From Solirubrobacterales bacterium (GTDB lineage Bacteria; Actinomycetota; Thermoleophilia; Solirubrobacterales; JACPNS01): a DNA stretch of 64,000 nucleotides. The position numbers and the translations under genes are program-made. The notes beneath the pieces were generated by a model, which worked only from the letters and a program-made list of their open reading frames with translations, searched no databases and was not told the origin of the DNA. The stretch covers positions 6,414-70,413 of the forward strand of contig JBASWU010000101.1 of NCBI GenBank assembly GCA_049276635.1, given 5' to 3'. Shown here in pieces: positions 6,997-40,921 of this stretch (the first letter of the stretch is position 1; each line of letters begins with the position of its first letter).

Positions 6997-7773
6997 GTGA
7001 GTGTGGCCGTCGCCGATCCGTTGTTGCTGGTCCACGGTTTCGCCCAGACACCGCGATCTTGGCAAACAGTGATCGACGTTCTCCCGGCCGGCCGCGATCT
7101 GCACGCTATCGAGCTTCCCGGTCACGGCGCGACGGCGCTGACACTCGGCCCGCCGAGTGTTGAGTCCGCGCGCGCGGCGATGTTCGCGGCGCTCGACCAG
7201 ATCGCGGCCGATCGCGTCGTCGTGTGGGGTTATTCACAAGGCGCTCGCGTCGCGCTCGACGCCGTCCTCTTCGCGCCGGCTCGATTCTCCGCGATGATTC
7301 TCGAGAGCGGCACGGCGGGAATCGACGACCCACTTGCACGCGCCGATCGCCGAAGCCGCGACGTCGCGCTCGCGTCGCGCATCGAGGCGGCGCCGATCGA
7401 GGACTTCCTCGACCTCTGGGAGCGCATCCCGGCGCTCGGCGAGCAGTCGCGCGCGCTGATCGAGAGTCAGCGAGCCGATCGCCTCGCGCACGACCCGGTC
7501 GCGCTGGCCGCGGCTCTCCGCGGGATCGGCCAGTCGGCCTACGAACCGATGTGGGACCGGCTCGGCGAGATCGCGGTGCCGACGCTGCTGATCAGCGGGG
7601 AGCGCGATCGGGTCTACGGCGCCACGGCCGAGCGCATGTGCTCGGCGATCGCCGGCGCGACGCACGTCGCGATCGCCGGCGCCGGCCACTCGGTCCATCT
7701 CGAGCGGCCGGTCGAGACGGTCGCCGCCGTCAGAGCGTTCCTCGAGGCCGGCATCTCTCCGAAAACCGGCTAG
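6997..7773 (+). CDS. menH: Alpha/beta hydrolase, probable SHCHC synthase
   Basis: LLLVHGFAQTPRSWQ...GYSQGARVAL (GxSxG nucleophile elbow)...GAGHSVHLERP. Located between menD and menC. GTG start. Confidence 0.7.
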   Translation: MSVAVADPLLLVHGFAQTPRSWQTVIDVLPAGRDLHAIELPGHGATALTLGPPSVESARAAMFAALDQIAADRVVVWGYSQGARVALDAVLFAPARFSAMILESGTAGIDDPLARADRRSRDVALASRIEAAPIEDFLDLWERIPALGEQSRALIESQRADRLAHDPVALAAALRGIGQSAYEPMWDRLGEIAVPTLLISGERDRVYGATAERMCSAIAGATHVAIAGAGHSVHLERPVETVAAVRAFLEAGISPKTG

Positions 7774-34890: not shown

Positions 34891-36435
<1,545 letters not shown>

Positions 36436-38740
36436 GGGAGACCCTCGGTCCATTCGGACCATAACTACGAGGGCATGGCCAGGCCGACCACTCGTCGCCC
36501 TGGCTTCCTGAATGTCGACTGAATCTGTTCGCGTTGCCAGGCCTTCGGGCCGGAGCACGCATCACGCTGTTGAGTTTTGAGGGACCACTCGACGGTGGCT
36601 TCTCAGCTGCCGGCGAGCGCGTCGCTTGCGGACCTTGAAAACTGCACAGGCCAAGCAATTTATAACGAAAGCGGAAAATTGAACCGAGCAACATCGGTCC
36701 TCGGACCAGTGTTGTTCAGTGTTTTGATCACCGTCAAGATATGAAGGGCATACGGTGGATGCCTTGGCATCTGAAGCCGATGAAGGACGTGGACGGCTGC
36801 GATAAGCCGCGACGAGGCGCTGAACAGCCTTTGACTCGCGGATCTCCGAATGGGTAAACCCAACACCTTTAATCGGGTGTTTGCGTGCACTGAATACATA
36901 GGTGTCACGTAGGTAAGCGAGGGAACTGACACATCTCAGTACCTCGAGGAAAGTAAATCAACCGAGACTCCCTTAGTAGCGGCGAGCGAAAAGGGACCAG
37001 CCTAAACCCGTTGCGTGCAAGCAATCACGCGTTGCGCAGCGGGGGTCGTAGGACACTCATCCCGGTAGTGATTTGCCGGGCGTAAGTTACAAAGCTGCAG
37101 TTAGTGGAAGCTGTTGGAATCCAGCGCCATAGCGGGTGATAGCCCTGTACGCGAAAACTGGCAGCCTTACGCGAGTTGTTCCTGAGTAGGACCGTACACG
37201 TGAAATGCGGTCTGAACCTGGGGGGACCACCCTCCAAGGCTAAGTACTTCCAGATGACCGATAGCGGACTAGTACCGTGAGGGAAAGGTGAAAAGTCCCC
37301 CAGACGGGGAGTGAAATAGTACCTGAAACCGTGTGCCTACAAGCGGTCGGAGCCCCACAGGGGGTGACGGCGTGCTTTTTGCATAACGAGCCGGCGAGTT
37401 ACTCGTCATTGGCAAGGTTAAGTGATGAACGGAGCCGCAGCGAAAGCGAGTCCGAATAGGGCGACTTAGTCAATGGCGGTAGACCCGAAACCGGGCGAGC
37501 TACCCATGGCCAGGCTGAAGCGAGGGTAAGACCTCGTGGAGGGCCGAACCCACCTAGGTTGAAAACTGGGGGGATGAGCTGTGGGTTGGAGTGAAAGGCT
37601 AAACAAGCCCGGAGATATCTGGTTCTCTCCGAAATATATTTAGGTATAGCCTCGGAAAATTGCGTGATGGCCGTAGAGCACTGTTTGGACTAGGGGTCTT
37701 ACCGGATTACCGACTTCAGGCAAACTCCGAAGACCATCACGTTTATTCCGGGAGTCAGTTGCTGGGGGATAAACTTCAGCGTCGAAAGGGAAACAGCCCA
37801 GACCGCCGTCTAAGGTCCCTAAATCATGGTTAAGTGGAAAACGATGTCTGAGTGCACAGACAGCCAGGAGGTTGGCTTAGAGGCAGCCACCCTTTAAAGA
37901 GTGCGTAACAGCTCACTGGTCAAGTGTTCAGGCGCGGATAATTCAACGGGGCTAAAACCATGTACCGAAGACGCGGGTGTGATTGATTTCGATCATTCAC
38001 GCGGTAGGAGAGCGTTCTCAAGCCTTTGAAGCGGCAGGGAAACCTAGTCGTGGAGGCTTGTGAAGTGAGAATGCCGGCATAAGTAACGAAAGGAGGGTGA
38101 GAATCCCTCCCACCGATTGTCCAAGGGTTCCTGAGTAAAGCTCGTCTTCTCAGGGTTAGTCTGGACCTAAGGCGAGGCCGAAAGGCGTAGTCGATGGATA
38201 ACAGGTTGATATTCCTGTACCGCGTCGCAACCGTTTGACCGACGGGGGGACGAGGAAGGCTAGGAGATCCCAGGCGATGGTTGTCCTGGGGTAAGCATGT
38301 AGGGGCGGCACCAGGGAAATCCGGCGCCGCTTAACCCGAGGTGCGATGCCAGCTGGCTCTATAGCCGGCGAGTCTCTGACGCCATGCCTCCAAGAAAATC
38401 CTCTAGGGAGGTCGCACGCGCCAGTACCAAAACCGACACAGGTGGACAAGTAGAAAATACTAAGGTGATCGAGATAACCATCGTTAAGGAACTCGGCAAA
38501 ATCGTCCCGTAACTTCGGGAGAAGGGACGCCCTATTAAGGTGAAACCGTTTACCGGTGGAGCCCGAGGGGGCCGCAGTGAATTGGCCCAACCGACTGTTT
38601 ACCAAAAACACAGCTCTCTGCTAAGCCGCAAGGCGACGTATAGGGGGTGACTCCTGCCCGGTGCTGGAAGGTTACGAGGAGGTGTTAGCGCTTGCGCGAA
38701 GCACTGAATCTAAGCCCCAGTAAACGGCGGCCGTAACTAT

Positions 38741-39283
38741 TGACCACGGTAGTTATAAAACCTGGCTATATGCTGGAACGCCTGTCCTTCAAAAGGTGCT
38801 CCGAGGGTTCGAACGCGAACTCGACGAGGTAAAGGATCTCGCACTACTCGTACGGTCGGTCGAACATCTGTTCGTCCGAAGACAACCGTAAAGTGACAAC
38901 GTGCCGAGTGCAGAAAATCAGCAGGAAAGGCTCTTCATCCGATCGGCAGTCCCGATCGCACGGGGGTACTTTCTGTCAGGTTTCGCGATGAGAGAAGCCG
39001 GCTTCATGACCGTGTGTCGTCCTCGAGGCGATTACGGCGGAAGGTGGAAGCTCTCAGCGAAACCGACTTTGTCACGGTTGTTGACCTTCGCGAGAAGATG
39101 AACAACGGCGACAAGCGAAAGTGCTCTCGGGAGAGAATCCTCAGAGACTATACGCCAGGCTCCGCGGCGCGAAACGCGCCGACGCGAGATGAGATAGTCC
39201 GGTCTCATGGGCGACCATGAGAGTCGAACAGAAATGATTCGACCGCCTGATTCGCATCCGCGCGTCAGGCAGTAACAACAACG
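38741..39283 (+). mobile_element. Group I intron 1 (543 nt, no ORF) after E. coli 23S position U1917 (helix 69 loop)
   Basis: 5' exon ends ...GGCCGUAACUAU and the intron ends ...AACAACG, followed by AACGGUCC. P1: exon UAACUAU pairs with intron GUAGUUA (38749-38755) with a U.G wobble at the splice site. P3 CUGGC (38762) pairs with GCCAG (39154). P element UAUAUGCUGGAA (38767), Q AAUCAGCAGG (38916), R UCAGAGACUAUACGCCAG (39141), S GAGAUAGUCC (39191). Confidence 0.8.
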
Positions 39284-39297
39284 AACGGTCCTAAGGT
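39284..39297 (+). other. 14-nt 23S rRNA micro-exon (E. coli A1918-U1931: AACGGUCCUAAGGU)
   Basis: This is the only copy of this universally conserved H69/H71 segment in the gene. It sits between the two intron-like insertions. Confidence 0.8.
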
Positions 39298-39671
39298 AAT
39301 CAACACGGTTGCCCCTCATCCTGGTGACAGGATGAGTGGAGCTGGCTATATGCTGGAAACTCTGAGTATCCCGCGGTACTCGTTCGCTAGACCTCGGTCC
39401 GGCGAGCAGTGAAAATCCGACGGGTGCAGACAATCAGCAGGAAAGGCTTCAGGCAAGGTATTTGGCGCCTGAAGAATCCTCAGAGACTGTACGCCAGCCA
39501 CCTTTGCGCGCACCGATGGTGCGGGCGGAAGGCGAAGATACAGTCCGTTCTGCGCGGCGACGCGTAGAGGTCGACAGAGATGATCGGCCCGCCTGGATGC
39601 TGGATGAATTGATCCGGCGACCAGGTCCAAACCGCAGGCAGTTCAAAGGAACTGCGGTTAGTAACAGCTAG
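39298..39671 (+). mobile_element. Group I intron 2 (374 nt, no ORF) after E. coli 23S position U1931
   Basis: 5' exon ends ...CCUAAGGU and the intron ends ...CAGCUAG, followed by AGCGAAAUUCC. P2-like hairpin CUCAUCCUG-GUGA-CAGGAUGAG (39315-39336, GNRA loop). P3 CUGGC (39342) pairs with GCCAG (39493). P UAUAUGCUGGAA, Q AAUCAGCAGG (39432), R UCAGAGACUGUACGCCAG (39480), S GAAGAUACAGUCC (39534). I could not draw a convincing P1/IGS by eye. Confidence 0.75.
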
Positions 39672-39713
<42 letters not shown>

Positions 39714-39971
39714 AGTAACGAGTTGGGCGCTGTCTCAACGATGGGCTCGGTGAAATTGCAGTCTCGGTGAAGATGCCGAGTACCCGCGGTAAGACGGAAA
39801 GACCCCGTGAACCTTTACTACACCCTGATATTGGAATATGGAGCATTTTGCTCAGGATAGGTGGGAGTCTTTGAAGCGCCGGCTTTGGCTGGCGTGGAGA
39901 CAACCTTGAGATACCACCCTGAATGTTTTGTGTTTCTAACGGCCGGCCGTGAATCCGGCGGCCGAACAGTG

Positions 39972-40005
<34 letters not shown>

Positions 40006-40160
40006 CAAAATGTAACGGAGGCGCACAAAGGTTCCCTCAGCACGGTCGGAAATCGTGCATAGAGTGCAAACGCATTAAGGGAGCTTGACTGTGAGACTGA
40101 CAAGTCGAGCAGGTACGAAAGTAGGTGTTAGTGATCCGGCGGTAGCAAGTGGAAGCGCCG

Positions 40161-40203
<43 letters not shown>

Positions 40204-40235
40204 GAGCCCAAGAGTTCACATCGACGGCTCGGTTT

Positions 40236-40274
<39 letters not shown>

Positions 40275-40275
40275 T

Positions 40276-40309
<34 letters not shown>

Positions 40310-40310
40310 T

Positions 40311-40358
<48 letters not shown>

Positions 40359-40387
40359 TACCGTGGGCGTTGGAGAATTGAGTGGAG

Positions 40388-40418
<31 letters not shown>

Positions 40419-40477
40419 AGACCTCTGGTGTAGCAGTTGTTCTGCCAAGAGCATCGCTGCTTAGCTACGTCTGGACT

Positions 40478-40510
<33 letters not shown>

Positions 40511-40801
40511 AACCACGAGATGAGTTCTCCCACTCCTTTAAGGAGGTAAGAGTCCTGGCAGACCACCAGGTTGATAGGCCGGGTGTGGAAGTGCGGTAAC
40601 GCATGCAGCACACCGGTACTAATCGCTCGAGGGCTTGACGGATATTTTTCATCCTTCGGGATGATCGATGACCATGATCAAACCCAATTTGACGCCACCT
40701 CGTTCTTGCTTGCGTTCTGTGCAGTTTTGAAGGCCCGCGACGGCGGGTCGTTCGGCACCCAACCCGGCCGAGTGACTCGTGTTCGACGTGTACCCTCACC
40801 A

Positions 40802-40921
40802 GTTTCCGGTGGTTATAGCGTTGGGGAAACACCTCTTCCCATTCCGAACAGAGCAGTTAAGCCCAACAGCGCCGATGGTACTTGTCTCGCAAGGGACCGG
40901 GAGAGTAGGACGCCGCCGGTT
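40802..40921 (+). rRNA. rrf: 5S ribosomal RNA
   Basis: gtttccggtggttatagcg...ccgaac...gcgccgatggtact...gggagagtaggacgccgccgg has the typical high-GC Gram-positive 5S sequence. Helix I closes CCGGUGG/CCGCCGG. Confidence 0.9.

What the first reader, a model, noticed from the sequence alone, without database searches (positions are those of the whole stretch)
38741..39671. 23S rRNA gene interrupted twice: twin group I introns flank a 14-nt micro-exon in the helix 69-71 region
The 23S gene spans 3907 nt, and the rest of the gene aligns collinearly with E. coli 23S. The universally conserved stretch GGCCGUAACUAU AACGGUCCUAAGGU AGCGAAAUUCC is split into three pieces. They are ...gtaactat (ends 38740), aacggtcctaaggt (39284-39297) and agcgaaattcc... 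(from 39672). Both insertions follow group I rules: the upstream exon ends in U and the insertion ends in G. Both carry recognisable P, Q, R and S core elements. Removing them gives a normal 23S of about 2990 nt.

Group I introns in bacterial rRNA genes are rare. From memory they are reported in Coxiella burnetii (two introns flanking a 34-bp exon), Simkania, Thermotoga and some thermophilic cyanobacteria. I am not aware of an actinobacterial-type example, nor of an exon as short as 14 nt. The site is the H69 loop, which forms intersubunit bridge B2a, so correct removal or tolerated retention has direct consequences for ribosome function.
Basis: partly seen in the sequence, partly recalled or inferred. 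Interest (0 to 1): 0.85.

Follow-up and report, generated by a model that had tools for sequence, protein, structure and literature searches.

The report
Two group I introns in 23S rRNA
The 23S ribosomal RNA gene of this uncultured soil-type actinobacterium is interrupted by two self-splicing-type (group I) introns 14 bases apart, but the same arrangement is already published and occurs in many public genomes, so it is a new example and not a new kind of thing.

Summary
The 23S gene (36732-40642) carries two insertions, 38741-39283 (543 nt) and 39298-39671 (374 nt). They lie after E. coli U1917 and U1931 and flank the 14-nt exon aacggtcctaaggt.

Both are group I introns. Intron 2 passes Rfam's threshold. 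Intron 1 does not, because of about 300 nt of peripheral insertions. It does align with eleven other L1917 introns on a P1-P10 fold, with 94.8% of cells paired and compensatory changes at 37 of 71 pairs.

Intron 1 carries a dead LAGLIDADG homing endonuclease gene in its P6 loop. A metagenomic relative has the intact ORF, and the window copy differs from it by a 238-nt internal deletion. Intron 2 has no trace of an endonuclease gene.

The two introns are not recent duplicates. Each is closest to introns at its own site in other bacteria.

The novelty claims fail. Synechococcus sp. C9 has the same L1917+L1931 pair (Haugen 2007). One capped genome scan found an L1931-type junction in at least 120 species genomes: 20 labelled actinobacterial, 14 with the same double arrangement. 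A metagenome scan found 105 more double contigs. Some Actinomycetota genomes have an 8-nt micro-exon.

Splicing itself is inferred, not shown.

The parts
36732..40642 (+). 23S rRNA gene (3911 nt; 2994 nt once both introns are removed)
   Evidence: Rfam LSU_rRNA_bacteria, 2748.9 bits, model 1-2925 complete
38733..38740 (+). End of exon 1 (GUAACUAU, 3' part of the H69 loop up to U1917). This is the exon strand of intron 1's P1, and U38740 forms the U.G wobble at the 5' splice site.
   Evidence: Sequence. P1 pairs are invariant in 12 of 12 L1917 introns. E. coli numbering.
38741..39283 (+). Intron 1, a group I intron at site L1917 (543 nt). Helices: P10 guide GACC 38742-45; internal guide GGUAGUUAU 38748-56; P3 38761-66/39154-59; P4 38771-76/38918-23; P5 domain 38777-38917; P6 38929-36/39129-40; P7 39144-49/39196-200; P8 39160-88; P9 (GCGA tetraloop) 39204-21; P9.1 39223-43; P9.2 39245-70; tail AGUAACAACAACG ending in the terminal G at 39283.
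   Evidence: Rfam Intron_gpI gives only 21.1 bits, below the gathering score of 50. The alignment with 11 other L1917 introns shows 94.8% of cells paired and 37 of 71 pairs with compensatory change, against 41% or less in slid controls. Coordinates.
38786..38835 (+). Lineage-specific extra hairpins inside the P5 domain of intron 1. About 33 nt are shared with the closest metagenomic relative L199 and 17 nt are unique to the window.
   Evidence: Alignments; absent from the other 11 L1917 introns
38931..39163 (+). Remnant of a single-motif LAGLIDADG homing endonuclease gene, mostly in the P6 loop of intron 1. The N-terminal piece (38931-39059) contains the motif region GYFLSGFAMREAGF. The C-terminal piece (39050-39163) is in a different frame. 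About 78 codons in the middle are missing. From 39129 onward the C-terminal piece overlaps the P6-P7-P3 core.
   Evidence: tblastn with HEGs from L113, L103, L015 and L006. An HMM of those four HEGs searched against the six-frame translation of the whole window gives only these two hits, E 3e-6 and 2e-3. There is a 238-nt deletion relative to the intact ORF of L199. No sense-strand ORF in the region exceeds 69 aa.
39284..39297 (+). 14-nt micro-exon AACGGUCCUAAGGU (E. coli 1918-1931). GGUC (39287-90) pairs with intron 1's P10 guide, and GGU (39295-97) is the exon strand of intron 2's P1.
   Evidence: Sequence; P10 and P1 pairing
39298..39671 (+). Intron 2, a group I intron at site L1931 (374 nt) with no ORF. 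Helices: P1 39295-39301/39307-13 (3 exon pairs GGU/GCC plus 4 intron pairs); P2 hairpin 39314-39; P3 39341-46/39493-98; P4 39351-56/39434-39; P5 domain 39357-39433; P6 39445-79; P7 39483-88/39542-46; P8 39499-534; P9 (GCGA tetraloop) 39550-67; P9.1 39569-89; P9.2 39592-625; P9.3 39630-59; tail AGUAACAGCUAG ending in the terminal G at 39671.
   Evidence: Rfam Intron_gpI, 62.9 bits against a gathering score of 50, model 1-253. Closest relatives are the 742-744-nt HEG-containing L1931 introns of Solirubrobacterales MAGs L028, L059 and L087, with 96% identity to L028 (91% and 89% to L087 and L059) and the same 3' end. Coordinates.
39672..39702 (+). Start of exon 3 (AGCGAAAUUCCUUGUCGGGUAAGUUCCGACC, H71 region)
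   Evidence: Local Rfam LSU match to model positions 1958-1988 with every base matching

Best explanation
The two insertions are bona fide group I introns at the conserved rDNA homing sites L1917 (in the H69 loop) and L1931, in the 23S gene of an uncultured Actinomycetota bacterium (probably Thermoleophilia-like).

Inferred mechanism: each intron folds into its own ribozyme in the pre-rRNA and is removed by the usual two transesterifications started by an external guanosine.

- Intron 1 selects its 5' splice site with an 8-bp P1 (GUAACUAU/GUAGUUAU, with U1917.G). It aligns the 3' exon through P10 (GACC with GGUC of the micro-exon).
- Intron 2 uses a short P1 with only three exon pairs (GGU/GCC, with U1931.G) extended by intron-internal pairs, followed by a long P2.
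- The two introns use different nucleotides of the 14-nt exon, so either can splice first.
- Correct ligation restores the universal H69-H71 sequence.

Evolutionary reading: both introns descend from mobile introns that carried a single-motif LAGLIDADG homing endonuclease gene in P6. After fixation the endonuclease gene decayed, as the homing-cycle model predicts. Intron 1 keeps a frameshifted remnant with a 238-nt internal deletion. Intron 2 has lost the gene completely. The ribozyme cores stayed intact because the rRNA depends on their removal.

Shown here: the positions, the folds, the homology and the endonuclease-gene decay. Inferred: actual splicing and its order.
For: - Exact junctions, U at -1 and a terminal G in both introns. 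Sites correspond to U1917 and U1931.
- Rfam Intron_gpI scores 62.9 bits for intron 2, above the gathering score, and gives a weak full-length hit for intron 1.
- Intron 1 aligns end to end with L1917 introns from 11 other bacteria in at least six labelled lineages. The named P1-P10 structure has 94.8% of cells paired, 37 of 71 pairs with changes on both sides, 0 of 500 shuffles reaching that, and 41% or less in slid controls. The window row keeps all pairs of P1, P3, P4, P6, P7, P9 and P9.1.
- The L1917 intron of the Solirubrobacterales MAG L088, one of the eleven aligned with intron 1, passes Rfam's gathering score at 53 bits.
- The endonuclease remnant is supported by tblastn and by an HMM search whose only two window-wide hits lie in intron 1. 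The L113 homologue matches Pfam LAGLIDADG_1 at 9e-19. L199 has an intact ORF and differs from the window copy by one 238-nt deletion.
- Length distributions are bimodal. L1917 introns are 267-383 nt or 697-780 nt in 87 metagenome copies, so the 543-nt copy is a rare intermediate.
- Intron 2 is closest to the HEG-bearing L1931 introns of Solirubrobacterales MAGs.
- The P1 architecture of intron 2 is shared, and its intron-internal pairs covary, across 42 distinct 5' ends.
- The same double arrangement occurs in 14 species genomes and 105 metagenome contigs.
Against: - No RNA data, so splicing, its efficiency and its order are not demonstrated.
- Intron 1 scores well below Rfam's gathering threshold on its own (21.1 against 50). 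It also has a C.A mismatch in P5 and a bulge in P8 relative to the family register.
- Intron 2 has only three exon base pairs in P1, and I found no convincing P10.
- The number of rrn operons in the genome is unknown, so selection on this copy is assumed.
- The only other assembly that covers the 23S (MAG GCA_049651765.1) is identical over the 21 kb compared and may not be independent. The Logan short-read contig stops at the start of the 16S.
Confidence: 0.9

Rival explanations
1. The inserts are not spliced. They would be intervening sequences cut out by RNase III, leaving a fragmented 23S, or expansion segments kept in the mature rRNA.
For: Fragmenting intervening sequences are common in bacterial 23S genes (general knowledge). 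No RNA data here exclude this.
Against: Both inserts have a complete group I core with U.G at the 5' splice site and a terminal G, and the fold is supported by covariation. Known fragmenting intervening sequences replace helix tips such as H9, H25 and H45 with simple stem-loops (from my own knowledge, not checked here). These inserts lie in the H69 loop and between H69 and H71. Keeping or nicking the RNA inside H69 (bridge B2a) would be expected to damage the ribosome.
Confidence: 0.03
2. The introns are decaying relics in a non-functional rrn copy, and the cell relies on another, intron-free operon.
For: The endonuclease gene in intron 1 is clearly decaying. The number of rrn copies is unknown.
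Against: The 16S, 23S and 5S all match their Rfam models full length with high scores, and the exons at the junctions are the universal sequence. The ribozyme helices of both introns are intact while only the endonuclease gene has decayed. That pattern indicates continued selection for splicing.
Confidence: 0.04
3. The double interruption is an assembly artefact or chimera, with introns from another organism joined into this contig.
For: The contig comes from a metagenome, and rRNA operons are prone to misassembly. The exact junction sequence was not found in JGI metagenome contigs.
Against: The operon is continuous with single-copy flanking genes, TyrRS upstream and a PhzF-like gene downstream. 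The same architecture recurs in 14 species genomes, many of them long-read MAGs, and in 105 metagenome contigs. The closest intron relatives are in Solirubrobacterales and other actinobacterial MAGs, which agrees with the 16S affiliation. The boundaries fall exactly at the canonical sites.
Confidence: 0.02
4. The two introns are true twins: one arose recently from the other by intragenic transposition (reverse splicing) or duplication.
For: Three long identical core stretches are visible by eye, and the 93-nt core blocks are 85% identical.
Against: The average identity between any L1917 and any L1931 intron of this class is already 80%. Intron 1 is closer to L1917 introns of other genomes (90%) and intron 2 to the L1931 intron of L028 (96%). 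Intron 2 has a P2 and intron 1 does not. Their endonuclease genes belong to different site-specific lineages.
Confidence: 0.05

Closest known systems
Synechococcus sp. C9 23S rRNA introns L1917, L1931 and L2593 (Haugen et al. 2007, PMC1995217; DQ421380)
   Same: Group I introns at exactly the same two sites, so the same 14-nt micro-exon. The paper describes the L1917 ORF as starting in P6, which is where the remnant lies here.
   Different: The cyanobacterial introns are 743 and 666 nt and each has an intact single-motif LAGLIDADG gene. They are described as lacking P2, and a third intron sits at L2593. Here the host is an actinobacterium, intron 1 has only a gene remnant, intron 2 has none and does have a P2, and no third intron was found.
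Coxiella burnetii Cbu.L1917 and Cbu.L1951
   Same: Two group I introns close together in the same 23S region, one at L1917, in a bacterium. The L1951 entry is in Table 1 of PMC1995217; the other details are from my own knowledge.
   Different: The second site is L1951, giving a 34-nt exon. L1951 carries the endonuclease gene. The intron subclasses are reported to differ.
Thermotoga L1931 introns, Thermotoga subterranea L1917 and Simkania negevensis L1931 (Nesbo & Doolittle 2003; Everett 1999; listed in PMC1995217)
   Same: Same homing sites, the same class of intron and a LAGLIDADG gene. Self-splicing has been shown for Thermotoga, according to the title cited.
   Different: Each of those genomes has a single intron with an intact endonuclease or maturase gene, and the hosts are thermophiles or an intracellular bacterium.
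rRNA introns of CPR/Patescibacteria (Tsurumaki et al. 2024, PMC11270868)
   Same: LAGLIDADG_1-encoding insertions recur at 23S positions 1917 and 1931, among other sites.
   Different: The host is a non-CPR actinobacterium with a GC-rich genome, and the endonuclease genes here are decayed or lost.
Uncharacterised L1917+L1931 pairs in public MAGs, for example Solirubrobacterales L056 and L088, and metagenome contig L199
   Same: Same double arrangement and orthologous introns. Intron 1's P9 is identical to that of L056 and L088. L199 shares the P5 insertion and the endonuclease lineage.
   Different: The sequences are only about 70-80% identical overall. L199 keeps an intact ORF, while L056 and L088 have lost it entirely from their L1917 introns.

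Membership tests
Group I intron (Rfam RF00028) | Covariance-model score at or above the curated gathering score (50 bits) | tested here: inconclusive
   Intron 2 scores 62.9 bits and passes. Intron 1 scores 21.1 bits (E 0.0075 in a 1-kb search) and fails on its own. The alignment shows the penalty comes from insertions of 97 nt in P5 and 199 nt in P6. The related L1917 intron in L088 passes at 53 bits. This is a detection threshold, not a structural definition.
Group I intron | P1 formed by the 5' exon and an internal guide sequence, with a U.G wobble at the 5' splice site | tested here: met
   Intron 1: GUAACUAU/GUAGUUAU with U38740.G38749; the six exon pairs counted in the family alignment (AACUAU/GUAGUU) are invariant in 12 of 12 family members. 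Intron 2: GGU/GCC with U39297.G39311, plus intron-internal pairs that covary across 42 distinct 5' ends.
Group I intron | Terminal guanosine at the 3' end of the intron | tested here: met
   G39283 and G39671. All L1917 and L1931 homologues also end in G.
Group I intron | Conserved core made of the P4-P6 and P3-P7-P8-P9 domains, including the P3/P7 pseudoknot, supported by covariation | tested here: met
   Intron 1 family: 71 named pairs, 94.8% of cells paired, 37 pairs with compensatory change, slid controls 33-41%. Intron 2: the helices in the Rfam structure line (P1-P6, P8, P9) align to the Rfam consensus; P7 was identified by sequence only.
Group I intron | Guanosine-binding site in P7 (a G-C pair next to a bulged A) | tested here: inconclusive
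   Both introns read GAGACU/AGUCC, which allows G-C, bulged A, G-C, A-U, C-G, U-A. Those pairs are invariant or covary (U-A to C-G) in the family. The assignment is by analogy with Tetrahymena P7, from my own knowledge, with no functional test.
Group I intron | GTP-dependent self-splicing with exon ligation | not testable with these tools
   No RNA or biochemical data are available.
Mobile L1917/L1931 rDNA introns with a single-motif LAGLIDADG homing endonuclease (Haugen 2007 set) | Insertion at the homologous rDNA position | tested here: met
   The sites follow positions 1916 and 1930 of a 2903-nt annotated E. coli copy, which are U1917 and U1931 in conventional numbering. The sequence context is identical to the published sites.
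Mobile L1917/L1931 rDNA introns with a single-motif LAGLIDADG homing endonuclease | Intact intron-encoded LAGLIDADG ORF, which is what makes the intron mobile | tested here: not met
   Intron 1 has only two fragments in different frames with about 78 codons deleted. The fragments give no Pfam hit. Intron 2 has no ORF or remnant. Both are immobile derivatives of that family, not mobile members.
RNase III-processed intervening sequences of 23S rRNA | A simple extended stem-loop replacing a helix tip, with no ribozyme core, leaving fragmented rRNA | tested here: not met
   Both inserts have full group I cores and lie in the H69 loop or between H69 and H71.

The most novel reading that the evidence does not exclude
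The endonuclease-free introns may be kept because they do something for the host. For example, the need to splice two ribozymes out of H69, with a 14-nt exon to be ligated twice, could throttle or regulate 50S maturation. Something similar has been proposed for the Coxiella introns and slow growth. A related, more modest reading is already partly shown by the scans here: rRNA group I introns, with micro-exons down to 8 nt, are a common and overlooked feature of soil Actinomycetota, Acidobacteriota and other non-CPR phyla, which contradicts the textbook 'rare in bacteria'.
Probability: 0.1. Interest if true: 0.6.

Novelty: new member of a known kind. Interest (0 to 1): 0.3.

Why it matters
As an individual locus it is ordinary. 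It adds an actinobacterial host to a known pair of rDNA intron sites.

It has two modest uses. First, it is a clean snapshot of the homing-endonuclease life cycle. Two neighbouring introns in one gene sit at different stages of endonuclease-gene loss, and an intact relative is available for comparison.

Second, together with the scans it shows that L1917 and L1931 introns are far more common in uncultured non-CPR bacteria than the literature I could search implies. This matters for rRNA annotation, for primer- or probe-based surveys, and for any pipeline that assumes bacterial rRNA genes are uninterrupted.

Tried and rejected
- **Exact look-up of the PhzF-like protein downstream of the operon.** Not on record, probably because the called start codon differs.
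- **Independent confirmation of the assembly.** The NCBI MAG contig is 100% identical over 21 kb, so it is probably not independent. The Logan contig ends at the start of the 16S. The exact 44-nt junction pattern found nothing in JGI metagenome contigs.
- **MAFFT global alignment of the two introns, and of intron 2 with L028.** The 5' halves were misaligned because of the large length differences. I used block-wise comparison instead.
- **First regex for core blocks.** Too strict, so it failed and was rewritten.
- **Pfam on the two short ORFs of intron 1.** No hit. The remnant is seen only with orthologous endonuclease genes or their HMM.
- **An idea I dropped.** I first thought the catalytic acidic residue of the LAGLIDADG motif had been lost. 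Aligned to the motif, the acidic residue (E in ..GEA..) is retained. The gene is inactivated by the deletion and frameshift, not by that substitution.
- **Recent duplication of one intron into the other.** Rejected.
- **Literature search for group I introns in actinobacterial rRNA genes.** Nothing found in the held library.
- **One Rfam call with seven sources.** Failed internally and was repeated with three.
Full report
**1. What is in the sequence**

The window contains one rrn operon. Rfam places the 16S at 34892-36432, the 23S at 36732-40642 and the 5S at 40805-40921. There is no tRNA in the spacer.

The 23S match covers the whole model (1-2925) but spans 3911 nt. Reading 38600-39800 shows the following layout:

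- ...ggccgtaactat, ending at 38740
- a 543-nt insert, 38741-39283
- aacggtcctaaggt, 39284-39297
- a 374-nt insert, 39298-39671
- agcgaaattcc..., starting at 39672

Joining the three exon pieces gives GGCCGTAACTATAACGGTCCTAAGGTAGCGAAATTCC. This sequence is contiguous in E. coli 23S. There the two junctions follow positions 1916 and 1930 of an annotated 2903-nt copy. These are U1917 and U1931 in the conventional 2904-nt numbering, the sites the literature calls L1917 and L1931. The first site is at the 3' edge of the H69 loop.

Only the gene length is slightly off (3911 nt, not 3907; 2994 nt without the inserts).

**2. Are the inserts group I introns?**

Intron 2 is. Rfam Intron_gpI matches 39288-39567 end to end with 62.9 bits against a gathering score of 50.

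Intron 1 gets only 21.1 bits (E 0.0075 in a 1-kb search). The alignment shows a complete core interrupted by a 97-nt insertion in P5 and a 199-nt insertion in P6. I therefore tested intron 1 by homology and covariation.

Of these loci:

- 92 had a clean L1931 intron of 214-773 nt.
- 14 also had an L1917 intron and the same 14-nt micro-exon.

Eleven of those L1917 introns come from MAGs labelled beta- and gammaproteobacteria, Acidobacteria, Nitrospirales/Nitrospira, Gemmatimonadota, Chloroflexi, Solirubrobacterales and one unclassified bacterium. They align with intron 1 along their whole length.

I named a P1-P10 structure on that alignment and counted pairs:

| Measure | Result |
|---|---|
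| Cells forming standard pairs | 94.8% |
| Pairs with changes on both sides | 37 of 71 |
| Shuffles reaching this | 0 of 500 |
| Cells paired when partners are slid | 33-41% |

The window's own row keeps every pair of P1, P3, P4, P6, P7, P9 and P9.1. It has one mismatch each in P5, P5a and P5b, and a one-base bulge in P8. The L1917 intron of the Solirubrobacterales MAG L088 passes Rfam's gathering score at 53 bits. Intron 1 is therefore a structurally intact member of the L1917 group I intron family.

**3. Anatomy and inferred mechanism**

Intron 1:

- P1 pairs the exon GUAACUAU (38733-40) with GUAGUUAU (38749-56). U38740.G38749 is the wobble at the splice site.
- GACC (38742-45), in the P1 loop, pairs with GGUC of the micro-exon (39287-90) as P10. 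GACC is conserved in nearly all L1917 introns.
- In effect the guide holds together the two halves of H69.

Intron 2:

- P1 pairs only three exon bases (GGU 39295-97 with GCC 39311-13, U.G at the splice site). Four intron-internal pairs extend it.
- The same architecture is present in nearly all of the related L1931 introns examined, and the intron-internal pairs covary (aa/tt, ag/ct, ga/tt, gac/gtt).
- A 12-bp P2 follows. I found no convincing P10.
- Three-base exon recognition has a precedent in the Azoarcus tRNA-Ile intron (my own knowledge, not checked here).

Both introns have the P3/P7 pseudoknot, a P7 that reads GAGACU/AGUCC, a GCGA tetraloop on P9, further 3' hairpins, and a conserved AGUAACA tail before the terminal G.

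The two ribozymes contact different nucleotides of the micro-exon, so splicing order should not matter. Splicing itself is inferred. It follows from the intact cores, the perfectly conserved exons and the position in H69. I have no RNA data.

**4.

L1917 and L1931 introns fall into two size classes. The long ones carry an ORF in the P6 loop. In L113 that ORF matches Pfam LAGLIDADG_1 at 9e-19.

The ORFs from the L1917 introns of L113, L103, L015 and L006 match intron 1 by tblastn. I built an HMM from those four ORFs and searched it against the six-frame translation of the whole 64-kb window. It gave only two significant hits, both inside intron 1:

- 38931-39059, HMM positions 13-55, E 3e-6. 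This piece includes the motif region GYFLSGFAMREAGF.
- 39050-39163, HMM positions 134-171, E 2e-3, in a different frame.

A second scan, of metagenome contigs, found 105 contigs with the same double arrangement. One of them, L199, has a 776-nt L1917 intron that is the closest relative of intron 1 and carries an intact ORF. The window copy differs from it mainly by a single 238-nt internal deletion, which removes about 79 codons and shifts the frame.

Among 87 complete metagenomic L1917 introns, lengths are 267-383 nt (52 copies) or 697-780 nt (35 copies), with none in between. The 543-nt copy is thus a rare intermediate caught during decay.

Intron 2 is closest to the 742-744-nt endonuclease-bearing L1931 introns of Solirubrobacterales MAGs L028, L059 and L087. 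Its core is 96% identical to L028 (91% and 89% to L087 and L059) and it has the same 3' end. It keeps only a short P6 hairpin, so its endonuclease gene is completely gone.

This is the pattern the homing-cycle model predicts after fixation: the endonuclease gene decays while the ribozyme is kept.

**5. Are they 'twins'?**

I compared four concatenated core blocks (93 nt) across the introns:

| Comparison | Identity |
|---|---|
| Window intron 1 vs window intron 2 | 85% |
| Mean, any L1917 vs any L1931 intron of this class | 80% |
| Intron 1 vs L1917 introns of L113 and L056 | 90% |
| Intron 2 vs L1931 intron of L028 | 96% |

Each intron is closer to same-site introns elsewhere than to its neighbour. 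Intron 2 has a P2 and intron 1 does not. The resemblance is between families, as Haugen et al. also noted. It does not indicate a recent duplication.

**6. Host**

The flanking genes are ordinary chromosomal genes, including LeuA, argininosuccinate lyase, a class A PBP, TyrRS, EPSP synthase and a HisRS-like gene. GC content is about 65%.

The 16S is 89-90% identical to MAGs labelled 'uncultured Actinomycetes' and Solirubrobacterales, and about 82-83% identical to Acidimicrobiia. The host is therefore an Actinomycetota bacterium, probably related to Thermoleophilia.

The window is identical over the 21 kb compared, which includes the operon, to contig JBASCS010000095.1 of MAG GCA_049651765.1.

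**7. Comparison with what is known**

- The same L1917+L1931 pair, and so the same 14-nt exon, was described in Synechococcus sp. C9 in 2007, with intact endonuclease genes.
- Single introns at these sites are known in Thermotoga and Simkania. Coxiella has L1917 plus L1951.
- Positions 1917 and 1931 are recurrent LAGLIDADG sites in CPR bacteria.
- I found no paper reporting such introns in Actinomycetota.
- Public MAGs nevertheless hold many. Twenty of the 120 loci are labelled actinobacterial. Two Solirubrobacterales MAGs have the same double arrangement.
- Three Actinomycetota MAGs have an intron after U1923 plus L1931, which leaves an 8-nt micro-exon.

**8. Verdict**

The observation and the structural interpretation hold. 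The claims of rarity and of an unprecedented micro-exon do not. This is a new member of a known kind.

Its added value is the decaying endonuclease gene, and the evidence that these introns are much more common in uncultured non-CPR bacteria than the literature I searched suggests.

Noticed in passing
L075, L095 and L105 (Acidimicrobiia, Actinomycetes and Actinomycetota MAGs), just upstream of their L1931 introns: In these three MAGs an intron ending ...GTAACA(4-6 nt)G lies directly before CCTAAGGT. In L075, the only one where exon 1 was located, exon 1 runs to AACGGT (U1923). An L1931 intron follows. That leaves a micro-exon of only 8 nt (CCTAAGGT), shorter than the 14-nt one in the window.
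   Followed up: partly
Nearly all are MAGs. They span Acidobacteriota, Actinomycetota, Proteobacteria, Nitrospirota, Gemmatimonadota, Chloroflexota, Bacteroidota, Planctomycetota, CPR and others. This is far more than the handful of non-CPR cases in the literature I could search.
   Followed up: partly
L056 14-2421 and 3196-7326 (Solirubrobacterales MAG MFD05502.bin.1.1): The 16S gene spans 2408 nt, with an Intron_gpI hit (61.8 bits) at 2365-2719, at or just past its 3' end. The 23S spans 4131 nt and holds the L1917 and L1931 introns plus further intron-like BLAST matches near 7316-7426. This relative appears to carry several rRNA introns, including one in or next to the 16S.
   Followed up: no
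L199 986-1761 (metagenome contig ORJL011504569.1): The intact ORF in the closest relative of intron 1 has an atypical LAGLIDADG motif (YFLSGFALGEASF, where the usual form is YLAGFADGEGSF). The window remnant has the same lineage-specific form (FLSGFAMREAGF). This lineage might act as a maturase and not as an active endonuclease.
   Followed up: no
L044, L061 and L073 (Gammaproteobacteria MAGs), L1917 introns of 313-343 nt: These three L1917 introns start and end differently from the other eleven (5' AGGCAT..., 3' ...AACGACCAG) and lack the GACC..GTAGTT guide near the 5' end. They look like a second, distinct intron lineage at the same site.
   Followed up: no
L021, L029, L033, L054, L062, L065, L078, L107, L121 and others: Several genomes with L1931 introns have compensating changes in the H69 stem, for example GGCGGTAAC...AACCGTCC or GGCGATAAC...AATCGTCC. 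The homing-site sequence is therefore not invariant among intron-bearing bacteria.
   Followed up: no
window 38786-38835: The P5 domain of intron 1 has an extra insertion of about 50 nt that can form two small hairpins. About 33 nt are shared with L199 and 17 nt are unique to the window. The other L1917 introns lack it.
   Followed up: partly
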